Virus record (IMG/VR): IMGVR_UViG_3300030047_000010
Direction: 5' to 3' (one strand)
DNA: 64,000 nt
From: a virus
Lineage: Duplodnaviria; Heunggongvirae; Uroviricota; Caudoviricetes
In this document: piece after piece, positions 9,984-55,600 of the stretch
Position numbering within the stretch: the first letter of the stretch is position 1
Layout: every line of letters begins with the position of its first letter
The notes under the pieces: model-generated
Seen by the model: the letters and a program-made list of their open reading frames with translations, nothing else
Told to the model about the DNA's origin: nothing
Database searches by the model: none
Position numbers and translations under genes: made by a program

Positions 9984-12128
9984 CTAGCCCAATCCGGAAT
10001 ACATAGTAAGCTTGGAGGTCTCATCCTTGATCTTGGGTCCCTGGCTAGCACTAACCATATTATTGCTCACAGAAGCAAAACCATCAGTTATACGAGCACT
10101 GGGACCCGAAGAAGACGACCCTAAACTCGTCTGTTGAGAAGAACGGTTGTATATATCGGTAAGTTTGATAATCTCAGCACGAACCAATCTAATAAGATCC
10201 TTATTATGACTAGCCTGTGCTACTTTTGATTGTGTCTCATATAGATTCGCAAGACGTTCAACAGTCTCACGAGCAACAGGAACAGTAGCGAAACCAAGTC
10301 TATTCAAAAGAAACTTTGATGTTTCTATCTTTGCTGTAGCCTCAGAAAACCGCTCACCCAGGTACCGAGACAATGCGGCGTTATCCTTTAGGATGCCCAT
10401 GCGACGGTTGTCTTTGGTTACATAGCTGACAACAGAAGCCCACTCAGACGGTGTTAAATCCATGACAGGTTGATCAGCGGACATATTCCCAGAGGCATAA
10501 GCTACAGATCTAATAGCAGGCTGCCAGAAGTATGTAGAAGGCGTAGCAACAGTAGAACTAAATGCTCCACCAAAGTCGCCACCTCCGCTCCCACCGCCTT
10601 CGCCACCCTCACCCTCTTCAGGATGCAGCTTGTCAATTTGCCCACGAAGCTTAGCATCTTCTGGCAACTGCTCCATCAAAGAAGACAGGTCTAAGCCACC
10701 AGCAGATGCCCATGTCTTCAGAGAAATAGGCACCCCATGCTGCTCTATCTTCTCCAAAATATCAATGTAAGAAGTATCCGACTCAGGCGATAGATTTTTG
10801 TTCCAGTGAATCGTAGGCAGCAATAAACTGTTACGTGGAATATCCATAGCATCTTCAAAGGACATGGATGCTGTGGTACGAACATGGTGTGATAGTTCAG
10901 CAGGTGTACGGCGCAGAAACTGATGAGCACGAGCTAATCTATCAAAGATCGTATGCTCCCAGACCTTCTGTGCAATATAGGAGCGCATGACTTTAATGCT
11001 CTCCATGAACACGGACAGTGTAGCTTCCGTTGTTGTATAGCTAGCTTCCCCAGTCAAGAAGGTGTCAGATAAGCCCATAGCGGCAAGCTTTGCAGCACGC
11101 AGAGAATCTTGTTCCTCCGACAACTTCCAAAAGTCACCACCATTACGGTATTCGGATACCGTTATACCATTACGAGTAACAACAACAGCACCAGTGGGAT
11201 CCTCTTCTGTCTGAACAAAAATACGTTGGACTTCATCCAACTCGTCCATCGTGGGTTCCCACACGTTATCAATACCTACAGAGGCGTGCAGAATAGAACG
11301 AATACGACGGCGGGCCATTGTAATAGTACCTGCCTGTAAATGCTTTTCAATAGCATAATACGGTAAGATACGAAAATATATAGATGTACCTTTATGATCA
11401 TAGGTATTAACACGACGAGGTACATACAAGGTTGTTGCTGGATCTAAAGCAGCCTTACCTGTAAGAAGAGCCCTGCGTAGGTTATCTGGCAAGCTGCCTT
11501 TAGCGGCTTTATCACGGTCATCCTTGGACTCAAGGAACTTTCGCATATCAGGAGCACAAACCCAATCAATCTTAGGATCCCAGCCACGAATAGGAATAGG
11601 AGTGATCTCTAAGAACTGCGGATCATGTGCGAACATATCAAAGAATGTTCCATTATCCTCATCAAATAGCAAAGTAGATGAGTGGCGTCCAAACTTAAGA
11701 AACTCGCGTGTTATCTCAGGCATCAACTGAACAGGATCCAACTGCTCTACGGTTTCTTCATAGATGCGCATGATTGCTGGATCATCAATACCGGACAAGG
11801 TCATATCTGACCAGGGAAGGGTAGCAATCATATCCGTGCCCTGACCCGCTACAGAATCATCACGATAGATTCTGTTGAATAGCTGTGCTTGGGCATAATC
11901 AGTTTTAGGTGTAATATCATCTAAAAGACTTTCACGCTCCAAGGACTCTACGTTTGGTGCGTATCTATCTGTATTGAACATGACATCAGCTTGAGCTGTG
12001 CCTGTATACCCAAGATTTGATGCAGAGCGCTTGCCAGACTTAGCAACAGCCATAGGGGCTGTTGACATCATATTGGTGCCAAAGTAATTCTGACTAGGAG
12101 CGTCTCCAACTTTTACAAATGAAGGCAT
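9984..12128 (-). CDS. Large virion protein, 714 aa. Possibly the portal protein: the size fits, it has a Gly-rich acidic linker (GGEGGGSGGGDFGG), and it sits immediately downstream of a strong terminator.
   Basis: Long ORF. The portal call rests on size and composition only. Confidence 0.35.
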   Translation of the reverse strand: MPSFVKVGDAPSQNYFGTNMMSTAPMAVAKSGKRSASNLGYTGTAQADVMFNTDRYAPNVESLERESLLDDITPKTDYAQAQLFNRIYRDDSVAGQGTDMIATLPWSDMTLSGIDDPAIMRIYEETVEQLDPVQLMPEITREFLKFGRHSSTLLFDEDNGTFFDMFAHDPQFLEITPIPIRGWDPKIDWVCAPDMRKFLESKDDRDKAAKGSLPDNLRRALLTGKAALDPATTLYVPRRVNTYDHKGTSIYFRILPYYAIEKHLQAGTITMARRRIRSILHASVGIDNVWEPTMDELDEVQRIFVQTEEDPTGAVVVTRNGITVSEYRNGGDFWKLSEEQDSLRAAKLAAMGLSDTFLTGEASYTTTEATLSVFMESIKVMRSYIAQKVWEHTIFDRLARAHQFLRRTPAELSHHVRTTASMSFEDAMDIPRNSLLLPTIHWNKNLSPESDTSYIDILEKIEQHGVPISLKTWASAGGLDLSSLMEQLPEDAKLRGQIDKLHPEEGEGGEGGGSGGGDFGGAFSSTVATPSTYFWQPAIRSVAYASGNMSADQPVMDLTPSEWASVVSYVTKDNRRMGILKDNAALSRYLGERFSEATAKIETSKFLLNRLGFATVPVARETVERLANLYETQSKVAQASHNKDLIRLVRAEIIKLTDIYNRSSQQTSLGSSSSGPSARITDGFASVSNNMVSASQGPKIKDETSKLTMYSGLG

Positions 12129-12140
12129 GCACTATCCTTA

Positions 12141-12188
12141 AAATAAAAACACCTGTGTCTCTTTAAGAAGTACAGGTGTTTTTATTCA
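12141..12188 (-). terminator. Intrinsic terminator with bidirectional appearance. A 9-bp stem (aacacctgt/acaggtgtt) is flanked by an A-run and TTTTTATTTT.
   Basis: Seen directly in the sequence between the 205-aa gene and the 714-aa gene. Confidence 0.7.
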
Positions 12189-12205: not shown

Positions 12206-12823
12206 CTAGATACGCTTTACACGCTTAATCAAAGAATCTTGCTGTTCTGTGTATGGAGCATTCTCAGCAACAGCAGTAAACAGCTTATTAAAGAATGCGG
12301 AACTACCAATGTCCTCGGCATTGTTGCTAGAAACAAAAATACCAGTAAAAACAACAGAAGTCATCTGACGAGAACGTTCAGCTTCTTCATCTACCCATTT
12401 AAGCACCTTGCCAGATTCATCGTACACTTTATGATCTGCATTGTGCTCAACTACAACACGATGCTCAAAAGGGCTGTTTCCGGATGGACGAAGACTAATT
12501 TGAAAATGTTCTCCATTATCCATGCTACAAATCACGACACCGGCTAAGCCCTTATGATCCGCCCCCTTGTAGTCAAATGTCAGATTAAACCTAGCATAGC
12601 TTTTCTGCACATGAAAAACTTTTACAGCTTCCTGCTCAGCATTAACCTTTGCGCGATCACAGAAGCCAGAAAAATCGAAAGTAGGAGTAGCGCCATCAAC
12701 AAACACACAGGATCGTGGCTTTTGTGATTCCGAAGCAACTGCAATATGAGCCACATGTGCGCTACCCAATAGGCTAGAGACAAAATTAGTGTTAGTGTTA
12801 GTGTTAGTGTTAGTGTTAGACAT
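12206..12823 (-). CDS. Hypothetical protein, 205 aa, starting MS(NT)6NF…. It has its own promoter and terminator.
   Basis: ORF. AAGGGG RBS. N-terminus encoded by an (AACACT)6 repeat. Confidence 0.6.
   Translation of the reverse strand: MSNTNTNTNTNTNFVSSLLGSAHVAHIAVASESQKPRSCVFVDGATPTFDFSGFCDRAKVNAEQEAVKVFHVQKSYARFNLTFDYKGADHKGLAGVVICSMDNGEHFQISLRPSGNSPFEHRVVVEHNADHKVYDESGKVLKWVDEEAERSRQMTSVVFTGIFVSSNNAEDIGSSAFFNKLFTAVAENAPYTEQQDSLIKRVKRI
12786..12821 (-). repeat. Hexanucleotide tandem repeat. (TAGTGT)5 plus flanking partial units on the plus strand equals (AACACT)6 in the coding strand, giving (Asn-Thr)6.
   Basis: Seen directly. In-frame, at codons 3-14 of the 205-aa gene. Confidence 0.9.
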
Positions 12824-12843
12824 TTGCAGTACCCCTTAGCTCA

Positions 12844-12880
12844 AATATACATTAATTATATATATATATATATATGTCAA
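12844..12880 (-). promoter_or_regulatory. Sigma70-like promoter TTGACA…TATATT whose spacer is 25 nt because it contains a (TA)9 tract at 12857-12874
   Basis: The -35 is the reverse complement of 12875-12880 and the -10 the reverse complement of 12844-12849. The spacer 12850-12874 ends with aattaatg, as in the other conserved promoter copies. Confidence 0.55.
12857..12874. repeat. (TA)9 dinucleotide microsatellite in a promoter spacer
   Basis: Seen directly. Confidence 0.95.
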
Positions 12881-13206
12881 GATATTATATTAAGCACACC
12901 AGATACTTTATTTATCAAAGATTCTGGAAGCTCGGTAATAGTGTCCAGCTCAACAGAGCCAACTTCTAAGCCGCTATGCCAAACAGCCGCGTGTATAATG
13001 GGACCTTGCATCTTAACAGAGATTATAGTATGTCCGACAGACGTAATTCCGGTATAAACCCAGTAGGAGGTACCATCACCTGTAAGATGCTTATCCTTCA
13101 AAGTAAACTGCAGTATATGCCTAGGTAGTGCTACACCTAATGAGGATACCACAATATATGGTATATTAAATGATTTTAGCACCTGTGATGCGTATACAAC
13201 ATACAT
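12877..13206 (-). CDS. Hypothetical protein, 109 aa
   Basis: ORF in array. Confidence 0.4.
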   Translation of the reverse strand: MYVVYASQVLKSFNIPYIVVSSLGVALPRHILQFTLKDKHLTGDGTSYWVYTGITSVGHTIISVKMQGPIIHAAVWHSGLEVGSVELDTITELPESLINKVSGVLNIIS

Positions 13207-14065: not shown

Positions 14066-14101
14066 TGAAAAGTACCTCCAAATTACATAAAGAGGTACTT
14101 A
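14066..14101 (-). promoter_or_regulatory. A 9-bp hairpin (aagtacctc/gaggtactt) whose 3' arm contains the GGAGG Shine-Dalgarno of the next gene. The hairpin is followed by UUUUCA then AUG.
   Basis: Seen directly. Weak terminator and/or RBS-sequestering element. Confidence 0.45.
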
Positions 14102-14120
14102 CGTTCAATGTATATAAATC

Positions 14121-14516: not shown

Positions 14517-14913
14517 GATCAGTACTTTCGTTAGATGACTCCGGACTTGCCTGTTTGAACGCATAGTCAAAGGCAGCGTCAACACAGGTAAAAGGCTCCT
14601 TGATTCCAATATCAGGAGATACAGTAATGGGGCGCAAAGACCAAAGCAAAGCATACAAAGAATCAACACCTACAGTATCCATTGCTGTATACTTACACAC
14701 GGTATACCCGACAAGTTGCTTTCCCAGAGAATCTGCTTGGGAAATAGTCGTCACAAAATGCACAGTCAAGTAAGGGGTGTCCAAAGGACCAAGAGCAACG
14801 TAAAAGCACACCGCGCCCAAATCAAGAGTAAACACAGACTCATCAAACTTCCAATTATAGCGACCGAACAATGTGTAGTCATGTAGTTGCTTGATATAAT
14901 CTTCAATAGGCAT
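14509..14913 (-). CDS. Hypothetical protein, 134 aa
   Basis: ORF coupled to the radical-SAM gene. Confidence 0.45.
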   Translation of the reverse strand: MPIEDYIKQLHDYTLFGRYNWKFDESVFTLDLGAVCFYVALGPLDTPYLTVHFVTTISQADSLGKQLVGYTVCKYTAMDTVGVDSLYALLWSLRPITVSPDIGIKEPFTCVDAAFDYAFKQASPESSNESTDHA

Positions 14914-15749
14914 CAGATGACTTCTTTCTGTACGCGGTTCTTCAGATAGCCCTCTACGACAAAATATTCATCAGAGCAAGTACCATCGGTAAAATAGTTC
15001 AAACTGTTAATGTTTGTCTCCACCGTGCGCCAAAAGAAACAGTGCATACCGTGAATGATATGATCCTGAGACAAGTAAAACTCACCAACCTTAGGATACT
15101 GAGTAGCAATGTTGTTATACAAACCCTCATAGACCTCAACATCTTCCTTAAGAAGATCAAACCGCAGATCCGTCGAGATACGACGAACTTGGACGTAGCG
15201 AACATTCTTAAACTGAGAGATATACTTAATGACATCAAGTACCTCGTCAGCATTATACCTATTAACCACAATAGACACTCGAACATTGTCGCCACTAGCA
15301 GGAATAATCTTCTCCCAGTCCAGGTGAATGGGAGCACCAATAAGTTTGTTCACCTCCGGACGCAGAGAATGAATGGAATAAGCAATCTCATCCTGCATCT
15401 TATTGATGATAGACATCTTCTGTAGAGCAAGAAGACCGTTAGACCGCAAGCCCACCGTGAAGTCACGAGACTGGAGATAATCCACAAGTTCCCCAAGGTA
15501 CTTGTATTGCAGACCATCAGCCGTCTGCCCAGTCATGTACAGCTTATGCACACCCAATTCAGTGCAGCGGGTTAGAAATGTCTCAAAGTTTGCCCACTCA
15601 GAGAATGGCACAGACATCTGATCCAACCCAGCCAGTTGGTCTGCAATGTCTTTTCCAAGGCAGAAAAAACAATTAGCATTACAGCGACCCAACAGATTGA
15701 TGTTGGCAAACGTGTAAGGAGCACGATCACGATTCTTATGGATTTCCAT
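14913..15749 (-). CDS. Radical SAM superfamily enzyme, 278 aa
   Basis: The CNANCFFC sequence matches the CxxxCxxC 4Fe-4S radical-SAM motif near the N-terminus. Confidence 0.6.
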   Translation of the reverse strand: MEIHKNRDRAPYTFANINLLGRCNANCFFCLGKDIADQLAGLDQMSVPFSEWANFETFLTRCTELGVHKLYMTGQTADGLQYKYLGELVDYLQSRDFTVGLRSNGLLALQKMSIINKMQDEIAYSIHSLRPEVNKLIGAPIHLDWEKIIPASGDNVRVSIVVNRYNADEVLDVIKYISQFKNVRYVQVRRISTDLRFDLLKEDVEVYEGLYNNIATQYPKVGEFYLSQDHIIHGMHCFFWRTVETNINSLNYFTDGTCSDEYFVVEGYLKNRVQKEVI

Positions 15750-16544: not shown

Positions 16545-16573
16545 AATATACACTACTTGTGTATATTTGTCAA
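16545..16573 (-). promoter_or_regulatory. Sigma70-like promoter TTGACA-N17-TATATT, 6 nt upstream of an ATG (leaderless arrangement)
   Basis: -35 is the reverse complement of 16568-16573; -10 is the reverse complement of 16545-16550. Confidence 0.6.
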
Positions 16574-21686: not shown

Positions 21687-21715
21687 AATTTACATTATTT
21701 ATGTAAATTTGTCAA
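21687..21715 (-). promoter_or_regulatory. Promoter TTGACA-N17-TAAATT. The spacer and -10 form a 9-bp inverted repeat AATTTACAT…ATGTAAATT, a putative operator.
   Basis: Seen directly. The ATG at 21680 lies 6 nt downstream. Confidence 0.55.
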
Positions 21716-21721
21716 CTAGTT

Positions 21722-23866
21722 TTAATAACCGGGACCATTATCATCAGCAAACAAGCTCAACTTCCTAGGTGTTGAGTAGCCTGCGGATGTAATTCTAGAC
21801 TTAGCTGTGTTAGGATTTCCTCTATCTAGATACCGTTGGTACGCTTCTATAGGGTTAGTGCTTGCACCAGAGAAACACCCAAGCACAGCAACACCAGCGC
21901 CACCGAGTCTTCCTGAGCCCAGACCAGCGTTGCGTAACTTTTGCAAAACACGGGGGTCTTGATAAAAGTGAACAGCCAAGCAGAAGGCACGGAATAGGTC
22001 ATCATCACCATACTTTGGTTTTAGTAACTTGCCAGAAATATCACGCACTGTCATGATCTGCAGGATTAATGCGAAATTATTCTTCAAAAACGACTGTTCT
22101 ACAAGATCATCTTCTGTTGATCTGTTCACAAATACGTCCAAACTCACCTCTGATGGAGGTAAGCTTACTTTCATGTTCATGATATCTTGTTTGATTTGAA
22201 TAAAGTCTAAGGGCTTCAATGAGTACTTATGCGCCTCGATATTAGCATCGCGTAATTCTTGCACGTCACCAATAGAATTCCATTGGTCAAAGGCCACTAA
22301 AGCAGTCGTTGTCTGTGTAGCTAAAGGCAAAATGAAATCTCTAAACATCTTACCTAAATTAATCTGCTGATCCTTCTCAGGTTTCAGATACATACAATGG
22401 TCTATCTTTAACTCCCCTGCAGGTGTAGCCGATGCAAGAATACAACCAAAACCGTTATTGTTAAGACCGTAGTCAAAAGACATGATTCTAGGAGTATACG
22501 GATCAAACGCTTTGTTTAATGAATACCAAACAGATGTTTGACCAAAGTTATCAGTGGATATTTCTTTCTTCACAGAAATAACAGGCTTGTCGGATTTCGT
22601 TCGAACACAAGCAATAATGGGTTTTGGGTCGGGCATCCAGGGTGAATCGGCTACTGGTGGTATAGCACCGTAATCACGCAGGGCATTGTCATAGTTCTTT
22701 GCAAACTCTAGTCTAATAAACTCGGAGTCTCTACTGTAGTTGGGATTGAACTCCCATGTAGCCCAGTGACCTGTGAAAATACGTGGTTCATTACGAGATT
22801 TACGAATAGTACGACACATGACATCATTAATGTCAGAAGGACTACTGATATCAAATGCAATACCCATAGGGGTATCATACTCACCACCCTCAAATAACTT
22901 TGTAGCAGCATTACGAATAGTAGCTAAACTATTATTCAAAGACTGCCAAACTTCTTCGGCATCACCCAGTTTCTTAGCCTGAGTTACATCAATTTTAGAG
23001 TCAAACCAGCCAATCTCATCGACTGATGTAAAATACCGTGTGCGCCCACGTAACTTACGACAATCAGGAACAGCACAAGAGATACCTAAGTTTTTATGGT
23101 GGTATGTTGTATACGTAGCATTAGACGTAAACAACTCAATACCCATACGCTTACCAGCATCTCGTAGAAAATCATGATATTCACGATACCATGGAGATTC
23201 ATTACGGTTCGCAATGAACTGCTCCCAGATATTCTGCGTAGCCTGTTCCAAAGTGATAGCTGTAAAACTCATACGAAGGAATGTCGGAGTTAAACCAAAA
23301 AACTTGGATGGAGATACACGATAACCATTACGCTCTAGTGTTAAGTAACGATGATTTTGATAATGTGCAGCAAATACAAGAGCTACGTTTTTGCCTGAAC
23401 GCTGACCGCACAGTAGAGCAGCAGCTTGTGGAAATTTCCAGTCATTAGACTTATAGAAGTCTAATCTAGTTTTCCCGCACTTAGGGCATCTACCGTGATC
23501 CAAAAATTGAATCCTATCTTGAATCTCTCCAAGATCCTGATCATACATATCATACAACAGATCTTGATCACTACAGTCATAACAGGCATCACCAAATAAA
23601 TGAGTAAGTATCTGAATCTGACGAGGGAATGGTGTCGAATTCATAAACTGACGACCCGTACAAAACTCAAATACATTTCGTGCTCTTGGTATCTCTCGCT
23701 CATCCAAAGCTTCAAATACAGATGAGTCTAGATCAGCACTGATTGCTTGGGTAACCAAATCATCCGGATCAAAATCACTTCCGACAGCTTCTGCTTGCGA
23801 ATAAGCCCGTAGATTTTCAAACTCAGAACTTACTATTCTGGTAGCTGATTTCTTTCGTGCAGCCAT
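21722..23866 (-). CDS. terL: Terminase large subunit (putative), 714 aa
   Basis: Walker-A-like GQRSGKN. Walker-B-like FTSVDEIGW. C-terminal RNaseH-like nuclease motifs IMSFDYGLNNNG and LVAFDQWNS. N-terminal Cys4 (CYDC…CPKC). GGAG RBS. Confidence 0.55.
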   Translation of the reverse strand: MAARKKSATRIVSSEFENLRAYSQAEAVGSDFDPDDLVTQAISADLDSSVFEALDEREIPRARNVFEFCTGRQFMNSTPFPRQIQILTHLFGDACYDCSDQDLLYDMYDQDLGEIQDRIQFLDHGRCPKCGKTRLDFYKSNDWKFPQAAALLCGQRSGKNVALVFAAHYQNHRYLTLERNGYRVSPSKFFGLTPTFLRMSFTAITLEQATQNIWEQFIANRNESPWYREYHDFLRDAGKRMGIELFTSNATYTTYHHKNLGISCAVPDCRKLRGRTRYFTSVDEIGWFDSKIDVTQAKKLGDAEEVWQSLNNSLATIRNAATKLFEGGEYDTPMGIAFDISSPSDINDVMCRTIRKSRNEPRIFTGHWATWEFNPNYSRDSEFIRLEFAKNYDNALRDYGAIPPVADSPWMPDPKPIIACVRTKSDKPVISVKKEISTDNFGQTSVWYSLNKAFDPYTPRIMSFDYGLNNNGFGCILASATPAGELKIDHCMYLKPEKDQQINLGKMFRDFILPLATQTTTALVAFDQWNSIGDVQELRDANIEAHKYSLKPLDFIQIKQDIMNMKVSLPPSEVSLDVFVNRSTEDDLVEQSFLKNNFALILQIMTVRDISGKLLKPKYGDDDLFRAFCLAVHFYQDPRVLQKLRNAGLGSGRLGGAGVAVLGCFSGASTNPIEAYQRYLDRGNPNTAKSRITSAGYSTPRKLSLFADDNGPGY

Positions 23867-27913: not shown

Positions 27914-27942
27914 TTGACAAAAATACAAATAGAAACTATATT
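27914..27942 (+). promoter_or_regulatory. Sigma70 promoter TTGACA-N17-TATATT driving the plus-strand alarmone-hydrolase gene
   Basis: Exact -35 and -10 hexamers with a 17-nt spacer. AAGGAG RBS and GTG start downstream. Confidence 0.7.
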
Positions 27943-28524: not shown

Positions 28525-28553
28525 TTGACAAATATGCAAAATTAATGTATATT
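28525..28553 (+). promoter_or_regulatory. Sigma70 promoter TTGACA-N17-TATATT. Its spacer aatatgcaaaattaatg matches the conserved promoter family.
   Basis: Seen directly. Confidence 0.65.
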
Positions 28554-32673: not shown

Positions 32674-32702
32674 AAGATACACTTAACTTGCATACTTGTC
32701 AA
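32674..32702 (-). promoter_or_regulatory. Promoter TTGACA-N17-TATCTT for the membrane-protein/SPFH operon
   Basis: Seen directly. Confidence 0.5.
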
Positions 32703-33517: not shown

Positions 33518-33546
33518 AAGTTACACTAAGTATGTACCTCTGTCAA
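33518..33546 (-). promoter_or_regulatory. Promoter TTGACA-N17-TAACTT
   Basis: Seen directly. Confidence 0.45.
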
Positions 33547-45235: not shown

Positions 45236-48200
45236 CTACTTACAAAAGTTTTCAAAGAAATTATGCAGGTATGCGGTTGTTGACAGATTCTTAGCCACAT
45301 AGCGAAGCAACGGATAAGGCATATTGGGATCTAAAACACGCACGTGATTAACAGGATCAAACTCAACAAGACCTCGGGCAAATTTATGCAACAGAAGCTT
45401 AATAGAAGACTCTGTCCTAGGATCAGCATACCTTCCTGGTATCTCATTTACTAATGTTTTATAAAATCCCAAAGATCTCTCAGATAACAGGATAGATGGA
45501 TTAACAAAAGCTGCAAAATAACCAAGCATCACTAAGTAATCTTTAGTATCAAAGGTCACAGGACCTAGCTTAGTATCAGGAGATAACAGCAAATAGAAAA
45601 AATCACTCCAAGTATAACCGTACACTCTATGTGTCGTACTAGAACTGTGTGTCTCTGCTTTAGCGTCTGACACCAGAGCAAGCACTAAGTTGGTAGTAAA
45701 ATCTGGGTATTTAAGACCCTCTAATAGTACCTCAGGTTTAATCAAGCGATTCCCCTGATCATCCATCGGGTATATAGACGCAGATGTCAACAGACCAAAA
45801 CCCATAGCTTTAACAACGGGTGCTCCCGACTGTATCTTCACAAAAAGATCAGGCATATCTTCAGCAGGCATAGCTTCAACAGCACCAAAGAAGTCAGATT
45901 TATGAAACGGAGGGTTTGCAATATAAGAAATTGTATCTTCTACAGATCTACGCTCACCACGAGATGGTTGAAAGGGTGCAGAGAACTCATGAACATAGGG
46001 TGCTGTCTCATGCTGTAACTCTTTAGTAGCTATTGGTGCCACATCACGCACATCAAAACCCGCACGTCTAAGAGACTCAATGCGATTAGTCAAAAAGCCA
46101 TTCTCATTAGTAGGGTCAACAGACTTACTCTTATAGGTTGAGAACACTTTATCCAGCAATAAACAGTGTGGCGCTATCTCGGTTATGTAGGAAGATGCTA
46201 CAAAGGCGTCTACTGTCATTGCCAACGCCTTAAACGTAGGCTCAAAAATAAAGCCTTTCTCAAAAAACGCAGTTAGTATTTTAACACCTGCCTCATTCAA
46301 CAAAGGTACATAGATACTTGGAGGAGCATCCATTGCACCATTAGTGATACCACCACTACTGGCAGAACTCACATAAGTTAAGTAGGCACGCATAAATGCT
46401 GGCAACTCTTTAGACGCAGCACTACTAGATAAAATCTTATGGAATAACTCGTTAGCATAACTACTATGTAATACTGTGGTATAAATAGTATCTACGTCAC
46501 CCCAGCTAAGAACAGATAACAAGTGTTTGTCAAATTCATGCAGCGCGGATGTAAACCAAAATGCGATACCCGCATTATGCAGTATCTCATTCTCAACAAG
46601 GGAACCGTGAACGTTTTCATAATTAGCAAGCCAACCAGATACTAATTTTATGCAGAAATCATCATCATCAATAAAATCTTCTGTTTTAATATAACTCAAT
46701 ACGTCGGGACCATTAAAAAAAGCAGAAATGCTGTCTCTAGGATAGTTCTGATTCTTAAGTCCAACGAGTATCTCATTTATCGTGTGCATATCAGGATGCA
46801 GATTAATACCAGGTATATTTGTTATACCTATCTCGTTCAGTTCTGCGTTAGATAAATCTAACGTTAAGGCATTACGAGGAAACGTCTCGGATGCACGCCA
46901 ACCGCCGTGATCTTTGATTATCTGAATTAAAGCAGGACGCACCTCAGAAGCAAAACCCAGTTTATTTATTACACCATAAATAAAACCAAGGTTCATTTCT
47001 GCCACATCTCTTCTCATGAATAATGCATCAACTTTAGCTGTATCAGACAGTACTTCTTGTACAAAAGCATGGCTAGCCTGTGACGCATTTACTAAATAAC
47101 CCTTCGTAGCTAAAGAACTTAGCAGCATCTTAGCATCTACTGAGTCACTCGCCACAAAAGCGGCTTCAGCTATCTTACCAACAAAACTAGAGGTAATACC
47201 AGACGGTATCATACCATACTGCAAGATACCACGAAGAGCACTCAAATAAGAATCAGAGATACCGTCTTTAGGTTCTACACCAAAACCAGCAAGGAAGTAA
47301 TCTAAATAAACAGGATGATCAAGAAAGTAATCTTTATTATAGATTACATAAGGATCTGAATCACCACCATGTTGAGATAAGAAGAAACCTAAGTTAGCAT
47401 ATGAACAACCAGCAGCACCCCGAGGTCCTACAGCCATAGTAGAAATAATGGAAAACAGTATATCTGTACAATTTGAATTTTCTGCAAGAGCCTGCATAGT
47501 AAACTGAGAAAGCTGCACGCTCGTAGTTAACCCAAATAGATGTAACAATGTTTCAGTATACTTACCGTAAGCCAATCTCTGCGAAGATCCATGGTCCAGC
47601 GTTAGCAAGACTTCCGGCTTTAAGCTGAACTCGTGACTCCCGAGAGAAATGCTTCGACCACCATACTTCTCAGCCAACGCCTCTATCTGACTCTCTATCT
47701 CAGATGAGAATCCAGCAGCAGGATTATCCGCCTCTATGTGCGTAAGGCTACTTCCAGTATAAATGAAACTAAATAACCGAACACGACTCTGATCCATATT
47801 TGCAGGAAAATCTACTAAAGAGAATCCATGGGTATTTGCTATAGCTTTAACACGATGGTCATCCTCATGAGTAGCTTCTTTATACTTATCTAGGAACTTG
47901 TACAATTTAAGTGCAAAAACATCATCATAAGCATCACAGGTTGATGCGTACAAAGCATAAGCAAACCTACGAGCTACACGTGCTAATAATGAAAACTTGT
48001 GCTCATAACCAGCACCACCAGGCAACCTAAACTCGATACGCTGCTTATCGGGGAAGTCTTTCTGGCTAACTATATTGGAAATATTAATAGTACCATAGCG
48101 ACCAATGTCATCACTGCGCATCTCTTGATAGAACTTATCAAGATCAAACTGTTGCATGCTCTTCATGCCAGAAGAACGAGACAATTCAGCTACCATAGCG

Positions 48201-48763
48201 AGCAAAGCAGGCTTTACAGATTTTGCATAGCTTGTATCATTACGCCCAAAAACCAATCTCCAGTAATCCTCACCCAGCAACAGGTACAGCTTAGCAACAT
48301 TGACCTTAGTTAGGTTAGTATCCTCTAGACTGAATGTTATATGCAATCCAGTAGAGTTATTTGAAATAGCTAGAGCCTTACCACTCTGCTTAGTTGCCAT
48401 CAACGAGCAGACCTTCTCCAAAGACCCCAGCATAGCATCTATTCCAAGTATCGGGGAGACTACTTCAATCTGACACTGGTGCTCCGGATCAACCTGAATT
48501 GATGTGTCTGACTCTACCGACCAATAGCGGTAATCCCCATCATGAGATGCGCCGTAACGCTCACTTACAACTATGCTACTCCTATTGATGCCTAGAGCCA
48601 ATTGTAACTTATCTGCAAAATCAGACCACCATAAAGCAGAAGCCATTTCAGCTTCAAAGCCGCAGCGAACAGCAGGACCCTTATACTTAGACCAGTCAGA
48701 ACTAATACTATGAAGATCTCTATCGAACTGAGATGCCGTTACAACAGTATAATCAGTCGCCAT
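45236..48763 (-). CDS. Giant amidoligase-domain protein, paralog 2 (about 1176 aa from MATDYTVV…). Motifs: RCGFEAE, YGASHDG, WSVESDTSI, EVVSPIL, TGLHITFS, RIEFRLPGGAGY and RFAYALYAS.
   Basis: Motifs conserved across four tandem genes; divergent helical C-terminal ~850 aa. Confidence 0.65.
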   Translation of the reverse strand: MATDYTVVTASQFDRDLHSISSDWSKYKGPAVRCGFEAEMASALWWSDFADKLQLALGINRSSIVVSERYGASHDGDYRYWSVESDTSIQVDPEHQCQIEVVSPILGIDAMLGSLEKVCSLMATKQSGKALAISNNSTGLHITFSLEDTNLTKVNVAKLYLLLGEDYWRLVFGRNDTSYAKSVKPALLAMVAELSRSSGMKSMQQFDLDKFYQEMRSDDIGRYGTINISNIVSQKDFPDKQRIEFRLPGGAGYEHKFSLLARVARRFAYALYASTCDAYDDVFALKLYKFLDKYKEATHEDDHRVKAIANTHGFSLVDFPANMDQSRVRLFSFIYTGSSLTHIEADNPAAGFSSEIESQIEALAEKYGGRSISLGSHEFSLKPEVLLTLDHGSSQRLAYGKYTETLLHLFGLTTSVQLSQFTMQALAENSNCTDILFSIISTMAVGPRGAAGCSYANLGFFLSQHGGDSDPYVIYNKDYFLDHPVYLDYFLAGFGVEPKDGISDSYLSALRGILQYGMIPSGITSSFVGKIAEAAFVASDSVDAKMLLSSLATKGYLVNASQASHAFVQEVLSDTAKVDALFMRRDVAEMNLGFIYGVINKLGFASEVRPALIQIIKDHGGWRASETFPRNALTLDLSNAELNEIGITNIPGINLHPDMHTINEILVGLKNQNYPRDSISAFFNGPDVLSYIKTEDFIDDDDFCIKLVSGWLANYENVHGSLVENEILHNAGIAFWFTSALHEFDKHLLSVLSWGDVDTIYTTVLHSSYANELFHKILSSSAASKELPAFMRAYLTYVSSASSGGITNGAMDAPPSIYVPLLNEAGVKILTAFFEKGFIFEPTFKALAMTVDAFVASSYITEIAPHCLLLDKVFSTYKSKSVDPTNENGFLTNRIESLRRAGFDVRDVAPIATKELQHETAPYVHEFSAPFQPSRGERRSVEDTISYIANPPFHKSDFFGAVEAMPAEDMPDLFVKIQSGAPVVKAMGFGLLTSASIYPMDDQGNRLIKPEVLLEGLKYPDFTTNLVLALVSDAKAETHSSSTTHRVYGYTWSDFFYLLLSPDTKLGPVTFDTKDYLVMLGYFAAFVNPSILLSERSLGFYKTLVNEIPGRYADPRTESSIKLLLHKFARGLVEFDPVNHVRVLDPNMPYPLLRYVAKNLSTTAYLHNFFENFCK

Positions 48764-51700
48764 AATAAGGGTACCCATACATAGGAAATAGTGATGTTAC
48801 TTTATGGGATTTCTTATGCTCATGTATCAAAGCATCAATCAAAGCAACATGCGTATGCAATTTAAGGCCCGTATATACCTCAAATAATGCATCAGGTAAA
48901 GAATCAGAGCTAATCTTATTAACAATACCAACATGAACACAGAATTTATACAGAGCAACAAATTCCTTAGAGCAGAAAGCTTCTGGAGATACTGCATGAT
49001 CACCTATAAAGGCGTCCAATAAATCAACAAATGAAACATGTTGCCTACCCACATGGGTAATAGAAGCATAAATAGAATAGAAAGGTAGCAACGAGGAGAA
49101 CAGAACAGACCCCAATTCAGGATTACTCGTACCACCAGTAAACATATTAAATCTACGAAAATCATCGTCAGGTATTAAAATAGATTCTATATACTGAAAC
49201 AAGAATGTTCCCATACCCGGTGATGTAGATGTCATATAAGCACGTGCTATGTTTGATGTCAGCAAGGAAGCAGGACAAGGTCCAGACTTAGTAGCAGCAA
49301 ATATAGTCCTTGCCAAAGAATCACCGAATGATTGTGCCTCCGCACTAGGTGCCGGGCAAGAGTACAGCTCATCAAGCTGCTTAACTGTGTAAGCATTCAG
49401 ATTAGTAATCAGTAGATGTGATGCTTTGAACGGCAGGGGTGCCAGAGAAGCACGATCCACCTCTTCACCACTAGGAGAGCCAAAGAAAGAAGCTAATTGC
49501 TTAGGTGTCAATCTATACTGAGCAGAGAAATCAGCAGGATACGGTACCACAGGCGCATCCTGCAACTCAATGTGCATTTTAGGATATGTAACAATTAAAT
49601 CTTTTTGAGTTGTTATTTTAGTAGATGCCACTTGATAATCTGAAAATATACCCCTAAGACTGTCCGCCGCAGGATCCCCGGTAGTAGGGTATGTAGAGAT
49701 CAGCTTACTTATAGCATCAAACAAAGAACACGCGGGCAGAGGGCGAGATAAATTACACAACGCATTCATGTGGTGTAAAAAATCATCTGTTACAGAACTC
49801 GTCCATGCACCACGATAATGTTTTACAGCAGCATTAAAACAAGTAGCCGATCCTGCACCTAAAGCTTGAGCACCATAAGTACCGTACCCGATAGCTATCA
49901 AGGCGGCTAATGTCAAGGCACCTTTTTCTTTTAAGCTATCTTCTGTCTCTTTCTCTTTACTCATGTCGTGTAAGTAAGCACGATACAATTCAGATTTAAG
50001 CTTAGGTGCAATGTCTAAAATCCGGGTTCCTTGATCTACAAAAACATTAAGTTTCACATAGAGTTCATCATTGCCCTCCATAGCAGCATTTTTCATGTTT
50101 AAGACACAATGAACAGCGGCCTGTGAGACTACAGTAGAGTCTAGCTGCTTGGGTATCGTATCTATGATACCCTTAGCATAAGCTAAAACAAAAGCAGTGG
50201 CTATCTCAGAAACGTCAGTACCGGTATAAGCACCGGCTGACTCTAACTGTTTTGCTGTATTTGAGAGAAATATTTTTATAGTTAATGGAGGAAGCTTATT
50301 TGAAAAATCAGTACCATCATAATTTAATAACATATCATCTGTGAGAGAATCAACCAGCGCATGTGCATGCATGGTCTCCATGTACTTAACAAAATTAGGC
50401 AACTTAGGGAAAATTATACCCAATACAGGACTTATGGCCTGGGCAGCCATACCCTGCATATTTAGAATTATTCTAGTAGAAACCGTACTAAGCACAGTAG
50501 GGAGTTCTACCTCTGTAGTATCTTTGGCACCTGTATCAGCAATATCCGATACATGCTCTAATAGAACATTAAGCTCTTTTACAAAAATATCATCTGAAAG
50601 AGCATCAGCATTAAGTGTGCCAGCTAGCTGCCTACCTATATAGGCACTAACGGGAACAATTAAAGATTCTTTCTTCTCTTCGGGTAATAAACGCAAGACA
50701 TCTAAATAGAAAGAAACCTCGTCAGGGTCAATCGCGTCAGCGTAGCTCTTAACTGTCCCAGGGAAACACTCAGCAAATAACCAATAGTGAGTTTTCAAAC
50801 GAGCTACAAAAGACTCATCTAGTTGAGATAACGAACTAAGTATTATAAATGGTATCGGCCTATTACCATTAAACCGTTCTCCCCACGCTGTTTGTACCTC
50901 ACGTTGATAGTCTGAGGAGTTTAGGTAATTAGCTATGTCAGCAGCAGGAGCTTCAACCGTGTGCATAAGATCAAACTTATTCTTAGCTAACGGATCACCA
51001 GCTAACTGGTCTAAATGAACACCGCGAAAATCACCATAAATCAATGTATTTAATTGATCATTATACTGAGCATGTAACTTAATGATGTCTGATGCCTTAG
51101 AATTCCGTATAGCAGCTACTATTCGGCTCAAATATAACGAACCACCAGGGGCCAGCCACTCACTACTCGCATCTTTTTCTTTTTGAACAGCCTCTTTTAT
51201 GGACTCAGGCCAATTCACGTCAATTGTAGTAGTAGCAAACTTTGAAACAGATAATTCATCTACAGACGTATGGGGCAGATAGATATAATGCTGCACCGAG
51301 CGTGTATCTGGTACGCTGCGTGGTAAGAGAAATGACCTTAATAGGGAGGATACAACAGTATCACTTAATTTGAACTTAGTATTAATCAAAGCATAACTAA
51401 CATATCCCAAGATTGAGTTAGTCTTAACCAAATTAATAGTACCCGTGATAGATCTAAAACTCTGCTGCTCTGGGACATCTTGCTCAATACTGTAGGCACC
51501 CTCGCCAAGAGATTTAAGAGCAAAAGCCATAGCAGGTGCGGACAAGGGTTTATCATCAGGCATCAAACATAAATAAGAACTACCACCAGTAGAACGAACA
51601 CGCATAAAAACTTTAGATTCATCGTATATCTGTGTAGCGCTACGCTGCTGTGCTTCAGGTGTAGCCATAAACTTCAAAGCAATACGTACAAGTTTCTGTT

Positions 51701-52614: not shown

Positions 52615-55600
52615 CTACGCGAAGGCCGAACGCCAAGGATAGACAGGCTCTGGTTTTGTGCTATCTAGCTGATGCTCCTGATGAAGTTTATACACTTCAG
52701 AAGCTACTTTACTACGACCTACTAACTGAAGTAAATAATCACCCAAAGGTGTTCTATCCTCCGTGTATAATATCGGAGTAATGCTAGCCGACACTACATG
52801 CTTGCTGTTGTACGTGTCAATCGCAGCATCCGGTAATGTACGCAGACGTGTATTAACATGTTTACGTACATTTTGCTTAATAGCCTTAATAGCAAGATTA
52901 CTAGTTAGCATCCTATAAATATCCGGGTTGCTATCTTTAAGAGCAAGGGCAAACGTGTATGTACTAAGTAATGAATATGGTATATAAGCAACGTTACTGC
53001 CGTCTGCTACCATAGTTAAGGTATCATATAAAACTTGTGAATATGACGCACCATATAAAGTAGAAGGCACTGTTTCATCAGCATCTGTACGATGAGCAGC
53101 AAATACATACATCAGCCAATCAGCAATGGCAATCACTCCACGATTTACTGAAGAATAGCCTAAAACAAACTCATGAATAGCCTGCCATACTGCTGGGTTT
53201 GTACTTACTCTAGCTGTATCACGAATACTATTAAATTCGACAAAGTCTCTATAGATAAGAGCAGGATCCGCAAAAATAGACGTAAAGAATTTAAGCAAAT
53301 CATCTTTTGAGGCATTATCAATAAATGACCTTACATCTTCTCTTGTCAGATCGTAATTATCTGTAATGCTATACTTCCGGACCTTGTATAAAACCTCCGG
53401 AGGTACAGATTTATCTTCTGAAACTACACCTGTGTCAGATACAGGTTTTTCTACAGGATAATCAAACGGTTCCTTTTCACTCAACTTTTCGGCAAAGGAT
53501 GAGCGCCATGTCTGAACATCCGTGCGAGATACCTTAAGATTAAAATAAGGACCGGGCTCTGTCCCTTCGTAAGCATCACCAACACGGAAGTCTAGTGGTA
53601 TAAAATTCAGGCTAGCTAATCGTATTGTTGTCCTGCGGTGCTTGGTCTCTTGACCTGCAAGATAATCCAAAACAGGAAGTAGAGTACCTGTATACTCTCG
53701 TGTCTCATAAGAAGGAAACTCGTAAAAAACAGATTTATTATCCCAAGGATATTTCATGAGACCTAAAGCTAGAGACTTGAGCAGAAAATTCAAAGCATCC
53801 TTACCAAACGCCAAGTGCTTATCTACGACAGGTACATGCTGCAATAAAGAACAGAAATCTATGTGACTTGCAGCAGACATAGTCCGCTTAATGTACGGAA
53901 AAAGAGTATCAGCCTTAGTGAAAAGATCTCGAAGAAAAGCTGTAGGCTTAATACCAAAAAGCCACGTGTAGTCATGATTATACATGTTTGAGTTTGGTAT
54001 AAGTGCTACAGCAGCAAGAGCACCGAACCAAACAGGATTTTTTAAGTATATCACAGCAAGAGCTTTATTTACTGGAAGTTTTAATCCAGATCTATTCAAA
54101 AGCCAAGCTGCTCTTGCTAGCTTAAAAGCAACAACGGAGCTACTTCTGAAAGTTTCAAGATCACTTTCTGTAGCGCTATCTAGAATATGCAACGTATCAG
54201 GTATAGACAATGTATCCCGAGACTCAGCTTCCAACAGAATATCATAAACACTAATTTTTTCACTACCTTTACGCAACTCAGAGTTTACAGTAGTTGCTAT
54301 AGCTTTTTCTATATCTAATTTGGCTGAATCTGGGATATCTGAAGATGTTATAGGGCTTAGTATATCTTCCAGTATGTAAGAACTGTCGCCATCGGCAGCA
54401 GCGCTACCATCAAAAGTAGCGAGCTGTCTTGTACACTTAAAAAGCAGCTCTGTAAATGTAGTCAGACCATAAGTTTTGTACACTATGTACAAAACAGATT
54501 GACACTCAGAAACTGCAGGCTTTGACTGTATGCAATCCTTTAATAATACAATTAAACCAGCACAATCTAAAGGATTGGACACAGCCTTTAAGGAAATTAT
54601 ACCCTTAATGATAAACGACACATTAGTTGTCGAAGGGAAGACATTAAGAATATCCTTAGATAGAGAATTACTTAGTTTACGATAACGAGCTAAACTGAGC
54701 ACAGTACCAAAACTCATATAGCCCATAGATGTACGTTTTAGCACTGCAGTACTACCAATGTGGGCCAGCATAAACCCAGAAGTGAGATCATCAAGAGCAT
54801 TATCGGCAGAATAATCATAGTTTGAATCTAGCTTCGCCCATACCCAAAACTTAAAGTAAACAAGACTCTCAGGAGATAGTGCAGACTTAGCCCATATAAC
54901 AAGCTGTCCAATAGATTTGAACTCAGTATCCGACGTAGGAAAGCTACCAATGTTATGAGCAAACTGTAAGCAACCCATAACAACATAATTAAGAGCAAAA
55001 GCAGACGCCCACACACGAGACTTCCCAGATAACTGACCGATCTTTTCTACGATACGAGGTACAATAGACCAGTCTTGTGGATCATTAGATCTAATATCAG
55101 GAAAATCTAACGTTGGTCTTGCTTGAATAGCTAAAACAAGAGTATTCAACTCAGGACGATCTAAACCATCACACACAGCTTCCTGCCCTTCAATGCAGTG
55201 AACTGCACCGGCAATAGACCACAACTGCGCTTCAGAAAATTTCCTCACACAGTCAAAAAAAGCTTCATTTGCATCACCATTGATAGCACGATGCACGCCG
55301 ATGTGCTTAACATCACTCCCCGAAAATACAAAAGAAGCAACAGCCGTAGCTGTAGGCTTTTGCATACGTGTCTTTTCAAACCGCATTAACTGATGTACAG
55401 TATTACGACCCTCTTGTGTAGTTTGAATACGAAATGTTCTATTTGTATCAGTCTGATTAAGAGTAGCCTTATCAGAGCGTGCCTCTTCTTGTGCCGCCAG
55501 CACTAAACGAGTCAGTTTCTTAATATAATAATCATTATATTGAGTCATCCCAGCACGAGATACCCATAGAGCATTAGCCAGAACACGCATTAGCCTAGAG

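What the first reader, a model, noticed from the sequence alone, without database searches (positions are those of the whole stretch)
12786..12880. Microsatellite-controlled gene: (TA)9 tract inside a promoter spacer plus in-frame hexanucleotide repeat encoding (Asn-Thr)6
The promoter of the 205-aa gene has exact TTGACA and TATATT hexamers, and the spacer ends with the same aattaatg seen in other promoter copies. The spacer is 25 nt because it contains (TA)9; five TA units would give the optimal 17 nt. Dinucleotide tracts between -35 and -10 are classic slipped-strand phase-variation switches, as in Haemophilus fimbriae and Neisseria adhesins. The coding 5' end also carries (AACACT)6, and its unit number can change without frameshifting. 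The gene has its own strong terminator. This is a candidate phase- or length-variable locus in a phage or prophage, and could be an exclusion, surface or anti-defence factor.
Basis: partly seen in the sequence, partly recalled or inferred. Interest (0 to 1): 0.7.

Follow-up and report, generated by a model that had tools for sequence, protein, structure and literature searches.

The report
Microsatellite-stretched promoter of a dispensable phage gene
In a roughly 375-kb phage, a conserved strong promoter has been stretched from 17 to 25 spacer bases by a (TA)9 microsatellite, and its gene has gained a hexamer repeat; relatives show the promoter was ancestrally normal and the gene is dispensable, but nothing yet shows the tract works as a reversible switch.

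Summary
**Observation: confirmed.** On the minus strand the sequence reads TTGACA (12880-12875), (TA)9 + ATTAATG (a 25-nt spacer), TATATT (12849-12844), a ribosome-binding site, then ATG at 12823. (AACACT)5.67 follows, which encodes (Asn-Thr)5-Asn, not 6 units. Both tracts exceed every Markov simulation. They are the only sizeable microsatellites in the 64 kb.

**Promoter.**
- It belongs to a real family: 6 exact TTGACA-N17-TATATT copies against 0.06 expected.
- The orthologous promoter in two related lineages, and the promoter before remote homologues in two more, all have 17-nt spacers.
- The window therefore carries derived +8 nt (TA) and +24 nt (hexamer) expansions.
It lies 14 nt from TTGACA at n=9, 16 nt at n=10 and 18 nt at n=11.
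- The present allele is therefore predicted to be OFF or weak, one slippage step from ON.

**Gene.** It is a fast-evolving orphan with dN/dS 0.12. Relatives carry two-domain, one-domain and 41-aa remnant forms. A phage whose flanks are 99.2-99.6% identical to the window's has lost it entirely.

**Variation.** The contigs I could read all show (TA)9. All 9 large contigs carry the identical protein.

**Verdict.** A real, derived promoter-spacer microsatellite at a hyperplastic accessory locus. Reversible phase variation is plausible but undemonstrated.

The parts
12875..12880 (-). -35 hexamer TTGACA. It contains the TGA stop codon of the upstream 109-aa ORF.
   Evidence: It is conserved at the same place in L001, L006, L021 and L023.
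12857..12874 (-). (TA)9 microsatellite inside the promoter spacer. It is 8 nt longer than the homologous TATCTATA / ATATATA of relatives.
   Evidence: Tandem Repeats Finder; MAFFT alignment with an 8-nt gap in all relatives; Markov simulations reach at most 14 nt against 19 observed.
12850..12856 (-). Conserved 3' part of the family spacer (ATTAATG).
12844..12849 (-). Ancestral -10 hexamer TATATT. It now lies 25 nt from the -35 hexamer.
12855..12860 (-). Second, consensus -10 hexamer TATAAT, created by the tract end plus AT. The spacer is 14 nt at n=9, 16 nt at n=10 and 18 nt at n=11.
12832..12837 (-). Shine-Dalgarno sequence AAGGGG, 8 nt before the ATG.
12786..12819 (-). (AACACT)5.67 coding repeat giving (Asn-Thr)5-Asn. 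It is 24 nt (8 aa) longer than in relatives.
   Evidence: Markov simulations reach at most 16 nt against 34 observed.
12206..12823 (-). 205-aa orphan gene. It has an N-terminal leader motif (SS.L......H.VV), one beta-rich domain and a C-terminal HAPYTEQxDSLxKR helix. It lacks the first domain of the 336/337-aa orthologues.
12141..12186 (-). Intrinsic terminator: a 15-bp stem followed by a U-tract. It is kept even where the gene is deleted.
   Evidence: compensatory stem changes in L006 and retention in L014 and L015.
12877..13206 (-). Upstream 109-aa ORF whose stop codon lies in the -35 hexamer.
9984..12128 (-). Portal gene immediately downstream of the cassette.
   Evidence: phrog_16240, E 1.7e-112; tblastn to jumbo-phage portals.

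Best explanation
The locus is a self-contained cassette of promoter, orphan gene and terminator. It sits just upstream of the portal gene of a roughly 375-kb phage.

**Shown**
- In this lineage two slipped-strand expansions occurred.
- The first adds +4 TA units in the spacer of a conserved sigma-70-type promoter that ancestrally had a 17-nt spacer.
- The second adds +4 AACACT units at codons 3-12.

**Inferred from the established 17 +/- 2 nt spacing rule**
- At n=9 both available -10 hexamers are out of register: TATATT at 25 nt and TATAAT at 14 nt.
- The cassette's own promoter is therefore off or weak in the sequenced genotype.
- The still-intact, still-constrained gene would then be expressed only by read-through or weak residual initiation, or in rare length variants.
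- n=10 or 11 restores TTGACA-16/18-TATAAT. n=4 to 6 restores the ancestral register.

**Interpretation**
- I read (TA)9 as one of several independent ways in which this phage clade lowers or abolishes expression of a dispensable, fast-evolving accessory gene.
- The others are a GTG/ATG start polymorphism, promoter decay with ORF collapse, domain loss and whole-cassette deletion.
- The tract is long enough to be hypermutable, so reversion to ON is mechanistically available. Whether it is used is not shown.
For: **Promoter family and ancestral spacing**
- 6 exact TTGACA-N17-TATATT copies against 0.06 expected.
- All 10 clear family copies in the window have 17-nt spacers, and their spacer sequence is conserved.
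- Orthologous promoters have 17 nt: L001-L005 and L011-L012 read TTGACA-TATCTATAAAATTAATG-TATATT.
- L006, L007 and L016-L018 read TTGACA-AATATATAAAGTTAATG-TATATT.
- The same family, with a 17-nt spacer, precedes remote homologues (35-39% aa identity) in L021 and L023.

**Expansions and register**
- MAFFT places an 8-nt and a 24-nt insertion only in the window.
- Register table: in-range -10 hexamers exist only at n=4 to 6 and n=10 to 11.

**State of the gene**
- The ORF is intact with a ribosome-binding site.
- Domain-B dN/dS against L001 is 0.12, compared with 0.009 for the portal.

**Dispensability and plasticity**
- L014 is 99.2-99.6% identical in both flanks but lacks window positions ~12209-12898.
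- L015 keeps a 41-aa remnant behind a decayed promoter, CTGACA...TAGTAA.
- The window lacks ~135 aa of domain A.
- The start codon is GTG or ATG among otherwise identical contigs.

**Stability of the allele**
- (TA)9 is present in both distinct contigs read.
- The 205-aa protein is identical on 9 contigs.
Against: - No transcription data exist, so promoter strength at 14 or 25 nt is inferred from the general sigma-70 spacing rule. The host and its RNA polymerase are unknown.
- The conserved spacer sequence of the family suggests an extra factor whose spacing tolerance is unknown.
- Read-through from upstream is not demonstrated. A hairpin with a T-run at ~14071-14103 could limit it.
- Both tracts are perfect, both hexamers are perfect and the ORF is constrained. 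This fits a maintained switch as well as a recent down-tuning allele.
- Consensus assemblies hide minority length variants.
Confidence: 0.55

Rival explanations
1. It is a true contingency locus used for bet-hedging. The (TA)n tract is maintained by selection as a reversible ON/OFF switch of the cassette promoter. The phage population would then always contain expressers (n=10/11, or n<=6) and non-expressers (n=7 to 9). This mirrors the H. influenzae hifA/hifB (TA)9-11 switch. The in-frame hexamer would add length variation to the product's N-terminus.
For: - The tract lies exactly between the -35 and -10 hexamers of a conserved promoter.
- n=9 is out of range but one unit from TTGACA-16-TATAAT.
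- The same repeat numbers, 9 to 11, operate the hif switch (PMC2651432, citing van Ham 1993).
- The only two large microsatellites in 64 kb lie 37 bp apart at the 5' end of one gene.
- The gene is a fast-evolving, dispensable accessory gene.
- (TA)n tracts next to TTGACA differ in unit number among orthologous viral contigs elsewhere, from 7 to 19 units.
- Phage contingency loci are now documented for homopolymer tracts (bioRxiv 10.1101/2025.10.21.683753).
Against: - No unit-number variation was seen in the window's lineage: both distinct contigs read, one shared by 3 samples, show (TA)9, and the protein is identical on 9 contigs.
- No relative carries a tract at all, so there is no sign of long-term maintenance.
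- Sister lineages lose the gene irreversibly, which argues for dispensability rather than a need to toggle.
- Hexanucleotide coding repeats do not switch expression (PMC2651432).
Confidence: 0.27
2. It is neutral decay on the way to gene loss. Selection on the cassette is relaxed in this lineage, and the expansions and domain deletion are early, inconsequential steps of pseudogenisation.
For: - Complete loss in L014 and a 41-aa remnant with a decayed promoter in L015.
- Domain A is missing in the window.
- The promoter is mis-spaced.
Against: - The ORF is uninterrupted with a good ribosome-binding site.
- The domain deletion and the hexamer expansion are both in frame.
- dN/dS is 0.12 over 172 codons.
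- Both promoter hexamers and the spacer tail are unmutated.
- The identical allele recurs on 9 large contigs.
Confidence: 0.13
3. There is no regulatory consequence. The hexamers are not the operative promoter here, or the polymerase or factor that reads this family tolerates the longer spacer. The tract would then be just an AT-rich insertion.
For: - The family's unusually conserved spacer, with the inverted repeat ATACA-N7-TGTAT, hints at recognition beyond plain sigma-70 hexamers.
- The host is unknown.
Against: - All 10 clear family copies in the window have exactly 17 nt.
- So do the four promoters before the orthologous or homologous gene in other lineages.
- This shows strong constraint on spacing.
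Confidence: 0.05

Closest known systems
Haemophilus influenzae hifA/hifB fimbrial promoter (TA)9-11 switch (van Ham et al. 1993, as summarised in PMC2651432)
   Same: A TA dinucleotide tract lies between the -35 and -10 hexamers. Unit number sets the spacing. With the TATAAT register here, n=9/10/11 gives 14/16/18 nt, the same repeat numbers that operate the hif switch.
   Different: - This is a virus, not a bacterial surface-structure operon.
- The promoter is unidirectional, not a divergent overlapping pair.
- Two alternative -10 registers exist, in range at n=4 to 6 and at n=10 to 11.
- No repeat-number polymorphism or switching has been observed here.
Phage contingency loci: homopolymer frameshift tracts in T2/T4 (bioRxiv 10.1101/2025.10.21.683753) and polyG tracts in Campylobacter phages (Sorensen et al. 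2021, cited in PMC11868660)
   Same: Simple-sequence repeats in phage genomes that can generate population heterogeneity by polymerase slippage.
   Different: - Those are coding mononucleotide tracts acting by frameshift.
- That preprint contains no occurrence of 'promoter' or 'dinucleotide'.
- Here the tract is a dinucleotide in a promoter spacer, and the coding repeat stays in frame.
Hyperplastic accessory-gene regions of large phages and moron-type cassettes of promoter, gene and terminator (own knowledge)
   Same: - An autonomous transcription unit for a non-essential orphan gene.
- It is present, truncated or absent among close relatives.
- It evolves much faster than the flanking structural genes.
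   Different: - It lies in the head module of a jumbo phage rather than in a temperate phage late operon.
- The terminator also serves the upstream genes and is kept after the deletion.
Neisseria promoter-spacer homopolymer switches (porA, opc) and the nadA upstream tetranucleotide tract (PMC2791445 for nadA)
   Same: Repeat-length-dependent promoter geometry.
   Different: The repeat types are different and the setting is bacterial. For nadA the repeats lie upstream of the -35 hexamer and act through regulator spacing.

Membership tests
SSR-mediated promoter-spacer phase variation (hif-type contingency locus) | The simple-sequence repeat lies between the -35 and -10 hexamers of a functional promoter. 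| tested here: met
   Sequence. Promoter status is supported by the family and by orthologous 17-nt copies.
SSR-mediated promoter-spacer phase variation (hif-type contingency locus) | Repeat number is polymorphic among strains or within populations of the same lineage. | tested here: not met
   - The two distinct contigs read, one shared by 3 samples, both show (TA)9.
- The 205-aa protein is identical on 9 contigs.
- Relatives have no tract rather than a different number.
- Only consensus assemblies were available, so minority variants are not excluded.
SSR-mediated promoter-spacer phase variation (hif-type contingency locus) | Changes in repeat number move the promoter between in-range and out-of-range spacing. 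| tested here: met
   In silico only: in range at n=4 to 6 (TATATT) and at n=10 to 11 (TATAAT), out of range at n=7 to 9 and n>=12.
SSR-mediated promoter-spacer phase variation (hif-type contingency locus) | High-frequency, reversible switching of expression is demonstrated. | not testable with these tools
   This needs read-level data, reporter fusions or fluctuation assays.
Sigma-70-type promoter family of this phage (TTGACA-N17-TATATT with conserved spacer) | Both hexamers and the conserved spacer tail are present. | tested here: met
   TTGACA, ATTAATG and TATATT are all exact.
Sigma-70-type promoter family of this phage (TTGACA-N17-TATATT with conserved spacer) | The spacer is 17 nt. | tested here: not met
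   It is 25 nt here. All other copies, and the promoters before the orthologous or homologous gene, have 17 nt.
Intrinsic (Rho-independent) terminator | A GC-containing hairpin is followed by a U-tract, and the stem is kept by covariation. | tested here: met
   - dG -26.4 kcal/mol, z -4.2.
- The L006 stem GCACTCAT/ATGAGTGC replaces ACACCTGT/ACAGGTGT.
- The simple scanner missed it because the loop is 15 nt.
In-frame coding hexanucleotide repeat (length-variable peptide tract) | Unit number differs between relatives without a frameshift. | tested here: met
   5.67 units in the window against 1.33 in L001-type contigs and none in the L006 type. Remote homologues have N-terminal extensions of variable length rich in N, S and T.
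Any described protein family for the 205-aa product | A significant match to Pfam, PHROGs or solved or predicted structures. | tested here: not met
   - No Pfam or PHROG hit.
- AlphaFold2 pLDDT is 45-51.
- Foldseek finds nothing at E<=0.001.
- Only 4 real homologue clusters turned up among 1.8 billion representatives and 5 in the 5.8-billion-protein collection.

The most novel reading that the evidence does not exclude
A jumbo phage uses a hif-like (TA)n tract in a promoter spacer as a reversible transcriptional switch. Two alternative -10 registers give ON windows at n=4 to 6 and at n=10 to 11. The switch would bet-hedge expression of a dispensable head-module accessory protein, for example one that is beneficial in some hosts but triggers or is targeted by defence in others. 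To my knowledge this would be the first promoter-level, dinucleotide contingency locus described in a virus.
Probability: 0.22. Interest if true: 0.75.

Novelty: new variant of a known kind. Interest (0 to 1): 0.5.

Why it matters
**If the tract switches.** Phage contingency loci would extend from coding homopolymer frameshifts to transcriptional control by promoter geometry. That would show that phages can hold accessory genes in a poised OFF state.

**If it does not switch.** The locus is still a clean natural experiment. Within one clade the same cassette is seen in several states:
- with a normal promoter;
- with a mis-spaced promoter;
- with a decayed promoter;
- with one or two domains;
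- as a remnant;
- deleted.

This marks the orphan gene as a target of recurrent selection on expression. It is a good candidate for a host-interaction factor worth testing.

Tried and rejected
**Searches for relatives that found nothing**
- DNA (blastn) and protein (tblastn) searches of INPHARED phages with the locus and the 205-aa protein gave no match.
- Only the portal finds distant jumbo-phage relatives, at about 33% identity.
- IMG/VR viral contigs, JGI metagenome contigs and GTDB genomes were searched with portal patterns. IMG/VR and JGI were also searched with a degenerate DNA pattern spanning the promoter. All came back empty.
- All relatives therefore came from exact-protein look-ups in ENA, Logan and JGI assemblies.
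- Those look-ups collapse near-identical places, so 8 further large contigs could not be read for their TA number.

**Function of the protein**
- Pfam and PHROGs gave nothing.
- A profile search of 1.8 billion representatives gave only 3 real remote homologues plus one spurious repeat protein, P0012.
- Two AlphaFold2 runs gave pLDDT 51 and 45.
- Foldseek against BFVD and the PDB gave no hit at E<=0.001.
- I considered a T4 internal-protein-like capsid-targeting leader because of the conserved N-terminal motif and the position before the portal. No conserved protease-type cleavage motif is visible across homologues, so this stays speculation.

**Other ideas set aside**
- Rfam: no RNA family anywhere in the window.
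- Contig breaks inside the hexamer tract (L009, L020) are not evidence of heterogeneity. The 34-nt tract exceeds the 31-mer I take (own knowledge) to be used for Logan assemblies, so the breaks are an assembly artefact.
- The hexamer expansion lowers predicted 5' mRNA structure from -9.2 to -1.8 kcal/mol. Ribosome-binding-site accessibility changes only from 0.63 to 0.69, which is too weak to build on.

Full report
**1. What is in the sequence**

The gene lies on the minus strand. Reading 5' to 3', the elements are:
- cTTGACA (12880-12875);
- (TA)9 (12874-12857);
- ATTAATG (12856-12850);
- TATATT (12849-12844);
- 6 nt, then the ribosome-binding site AAGGGG (12837-12832);
- 8 nt, then ATG (12823);
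- TCT, (AACACT)5, AAT TTT and the rest of the ORF.

The ORF is 205 aa and ends at 12206.

Tandem Repeats Finder reports the two tracts as perfect: 9.5 x TA and 5.7 x TTAGTG on the plus strand.
- In 100 first-order Markov simulations of the window, the longest period-2 tract reached 14 nt against 19 observed.
- The longest period-6 tract reached 16 nt against 34 observed.
- These are the only sizeable microsatellites in the 64 kb. They lie 37 bp apart at the 5' end of one gene.

Small corrections to the finding:
- The peptide is MS(NT)5N, so five full hexamers, not six.
- The -35 hexamer contains the TGA stop codon of the upstream 109-aa ORF.

A hairpin with a U-tract follows the gene at 12186-12141: dG -26.4 kcal/mol, z -4.2. 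The simple scanner missed it because of its 15-nt loop.

**2. The promoter is real and was ancestrally 17 nt**

- TTGACA-N17-TATATT occurs exactly 6 times in the window against 0.06 expected from shuffles.
- With near-variants of the -10 hexamer there are about ten copies, all with a 17-nt spacer.
- They share an unusually conserved spacer, consensus AATATACAAAATTAATG.

The window copy has both hexamers and the ATTAATG tail intact. Its 5' spacer half is replaced by (TA)9.

I recovered related phages by exact-protein look-ups in public assemblies. The window itself is 100% identical to a 375,610-bp ENA contig. Its portal is 99% and 93% identical to those of two sister lineages.

| Lineage | Loci | Promoter before the gene | Spacer |
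|---|---|---|---|
| Sister 1 (orthologue) | L001-L005, L011-L012 | TTGACA-TATCTATAAAATTAATG-TATATT | 17 nt |
| Sister 2 (orthologue) | L006, L007, L016-L018 | TTGACA-AATATATAAAGTTAATG-TATATT | 17 nt |
| Remote homologue, 39% aa identity | L021 | same promoter family | 17 nt |
| Remote homologue, 35% aa identity | L023 | same promoter family | 17 nt |

Sources are for the orthologues and for the remote homologues.

A multiple alignment places an 8-nt insertion in the TA tract and a 24-nt insertion in the hexamer tract in the window only. The relatives read ATG/GTG-TCT-AAC-ACT-AAA, which is 1.33 hexamer units.

Both tracts are therefore derived, lineage-specific slippage expansions. They started from proto-repeats: ATATATA in the spacer and AACACTAA in the coding sequence.

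**3. Predicted consequence**

It lies 14 nt from TTGACA.

I enumerated unit numbers.

| TA units (n) | In-range -10 hexamer | Spacer | Predicted state |
|---|---|---|---|
| 4, 5, 6 | TATATT | 15, 17, 19 nt | ON |
| 7, 8, 9 | none | out of range | OFF |
| 10, 11 | TATAAT | 16, 18 nt | ON |
| 12 or more | none | out of range | OFF |

By the established 17 +/- 2 nt spacing rule for sigma-70 promoters, the sequenced n=9 allele is predicted to be off or weak. A single unit gain would make a near-consensus promoter. These are the same repeat numbers as in the H. influenzae hifA/hifB (TA)9-11 switch (PMC2651432, citing van Ham et al. 1993).

This is inference. There are no expression data, the host is unknown, and the conserved spacer hints at an additional factor.

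**4. The gene and its locus**

*The product.*
- It has no Pfam or PHROG match.
- Five homologue clusters appear in a 5.8-billion-protein collection.
- Four real ones appear among 1.8 billion representatives.
- Homologues share an N-terminal motif (SS.L......H.VV), preceded by a polar extension of variable length rich in N, S and T.
- They also share a beta-rich domain and a C-terminal HAPY(T/S)EQxDSLxKR helix.
- AlphaFold2 models were poor, with pLDDT 45-51. Foldseek found nothing.
- The function is unknown.

*Comparison across the clade.*
- The sister lineages encode 336/337-aa proteins with two weakly related tandem domains.
- The window lacks about 135 aa, the first domain, in frame.
- L015 keeps only a 41-aa fusion of the leader and the C-terminal VKRI. 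Its promoter has decayed to CTGACA...TAGTAA.
- L014 is 99.2-99.6% identical to the window in both flanks but lacks window positions ~12209-12898. That removes the promoter and the whole ORF and leaves the terminator directly after the upstream gene.
- Among otherwise identical L001-type contigs, the start codon is GTG in some and ATG in others.

*Selection.*
- The window gene is not a dead pseudogene. It is uninterrupted.
- Its remaining domain has dN/dS 0.12 against L001 (dS 0.38).
- The portal has dN/dS 0.009, and other neighbours range from 0.01 to 0.10.
- The gene is thus a fast-evolving, dispensable accessory gene at a hot spot of structural change in the head module.
- The large terminase is at 21722-23866 and the portal at 9984-12128.

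**5. Is the tract variable now?**

Within the window's own lineage I found no variation.
- The ENA MEGAHIT contig and a Logan contig shared by three samples both show (TA)9.
- The exact 205-aa protein, and so the same hexamer number, is on all 9 large contigs found.
- Logan contigs break inside the hexamer tract. The tract is 34 nt, longer than the 31-mer I take Logan assemblies to use, so I treat this as an assembly artefact.
- Consensus assemblies cannot reveal minority alleles.
- The look-up tool collapsed eight further contigs that I could not read.

Such tracts do change in viruses. An IMG/VR scan for TTGACA(TA)>=7 gave 83 loci, mostly in AT-rich giant-virus MAGs. Several orthologous groups differ in unit number, from 7 to 19, and at 11 against 12 and 9 against 10.

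**6. Interpretation**

*Firm (about 0.85-0.9).* This is a genuine, derived microsatellite expansion inside the spacer of a conserved, spacing-constrained promoter of a dispensable phage accessory gene. A second, in-frame expansion sits in the same gene.

*Best mechanistic reading (0.55).* The (TA)9 allele is a down-tuning or silencing allele. It is one of several independent routes by which this clade reduces or loses expression of the gene. The capacity to revert to ON would be a by-product of tract mutability.

*Rivals.*
- A selected, reversible contingency switch (0.27). The n=9 to n=10 geometry and the clustering of two repeats support it. Against it are the absence of polymorphism, the absence of the tract in relatives, and irreversible losses in sister lineages.
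- Neutral decay (0.13). Against it are the intact, constrained ORF and the perfect hexamers.
- No regulatory effect (0.05). Against it is the strict 17-nt spacing elsewhere.

**7. Relation to known systems and novelty**

- Promoter-spacer repeats are classic in bacteria, as in hif (TA)n (PMC2651432).
- Phage contingency loci have recently been reported. Those are coding homopolymer tracts acting by frameshift (bioRxiv 10.1101/2025.10.21.683753).
- That preprint contains no occurrence of 'promoter' or 'dinucleotide'.
- Campylobacter phage polyG tracts are another case (cited in PMC11868660).
- My literature searches turned up no promoter-spacer dinucleotide switch in a phage. The library is incomplete.
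- I classify this as a new variant of a known kind.
- Membership of the phase-variable class is not established. The defining feature of repeat-number polymorphism was tested at consensus level and not met. Switching itself could not be tested.

**8. Verdict**

Interest is moderate (0.5). The locus is well documented, unusual for a phage and directly testable, but it rests on predicted promoter behaviour and shows no evidence yet of ongoing variation.

Noticed in passing
window 16545-16573(-), 21687-21715(-), 27914-27942(+), 28525-28553(+), 32674-32702(-), 33518-33546(-), 57520-57548(-), 58613-58641(-), 58867-58895(-): A phage promoter family TTGACA-N17-TATATT: 6 exact copies against 0.06 expected. 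Its spacer is unusually conserved (AATATACAAAATTAATG) and contains an inverted repeat ATACA-N7-TGTAT. The copy at 21687 has TTACA...TGTAA, with both arms changed. This suggests a regulator site or a constraint beyond the sigma-70 hexamers.
   Followed up: partly
L014 600-640 (JGI 3300047478), corresponding to window ~12209-12898: A phage 99.2-99.6% identical to the window in both flanks lacks the promoter and the whole 205-aa gene. The terminator now follows the upstream gene directly. The last codons of that gene resemble the L015 lineage, suggesting recombination.
   Followed up: yes
L015 930-1103 (Logan SRR24210337): The cassette is reduced to a 41-aa ORF that fuses the conserved N-terminal leader to the C-terminal VKRI. 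Its promoter has decayed to CTGACA-N16-TAGTAA.
   Followed up: yes
L001/L003/L004/L011/L012/L013 compared with L002/L005, first codon of the 336-aa gene: The start codon is GTG in some contigs and ATG in others, with otherwise identical upstream sequence. This is a possible polymorphism in translation level at the same gene.
   Followed up: no
window ~14071-14103 (-): A hairpin AAGTACCTC...GAGGTACTT followed by TTTT lies in the 55-nt gap before the 137-aa gene. It includes that gene's GGAGG ribosome-binding site. It could be a weak terminator or a translational control element, and it bears on read-through into the cassette.
   Followed up: no
window 12141-12186 (-) compared with L006 5540-5610: The terminator stem shows compensatory substitutions between lineages: ACACCTGT/ACAGGTGT against GCACTCAT/ATGAGTGC.
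   Followed up: partly
L009 3' end and L020 5' end (Logan SRR8555677): The assemblies break exactly inside the (AACACT)n tract. The tract is 34 nt, longer than the 31-mer I take these assemblies to use. I treat this as an assembly artefact rather than heterogeneity.
   Followed up: yes
L025-L104 (IMG/VR hits to TTGACA(TA)>=7): 83 viral loci, mostly AT-rich giant-virus MAGs. Several orthologous groups differ in TA number: 7/7/7/8/10/10/10/19, 11 against 12, and 9 against 10. L057 reads TTGACA(TA)8TGTTATAAT followed by a ribosome-binding site and ATG, which looks like another phage promoter with a TA tract in its spacer.
   Followed up: partly
window 58707-58780: A 24-nt tandem repeat (3.1 copies, 78% match) lies between two copies of the promoter family.
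   Followed up: no
window 45236-48778 (-) and 52615-56424 (-): Two proteins of about 1200 aa both match phrog_33777 (unknown function) and so may be paralogues. They lie in a run of four ORFs of 1134-1282 aa. The window has no tRNA genes and no Rfam hit.
   Followed up: no
window 14913-15749 (-); L001 2340-3218 and 5823-6194: The phage carries a radical SAM protein. Its relatives carry an ADP-ribosylglycohydrolase and a pyrimidine-dimer excision (T4 endonuclease V-like) gene in the same block.
   Followed up: no
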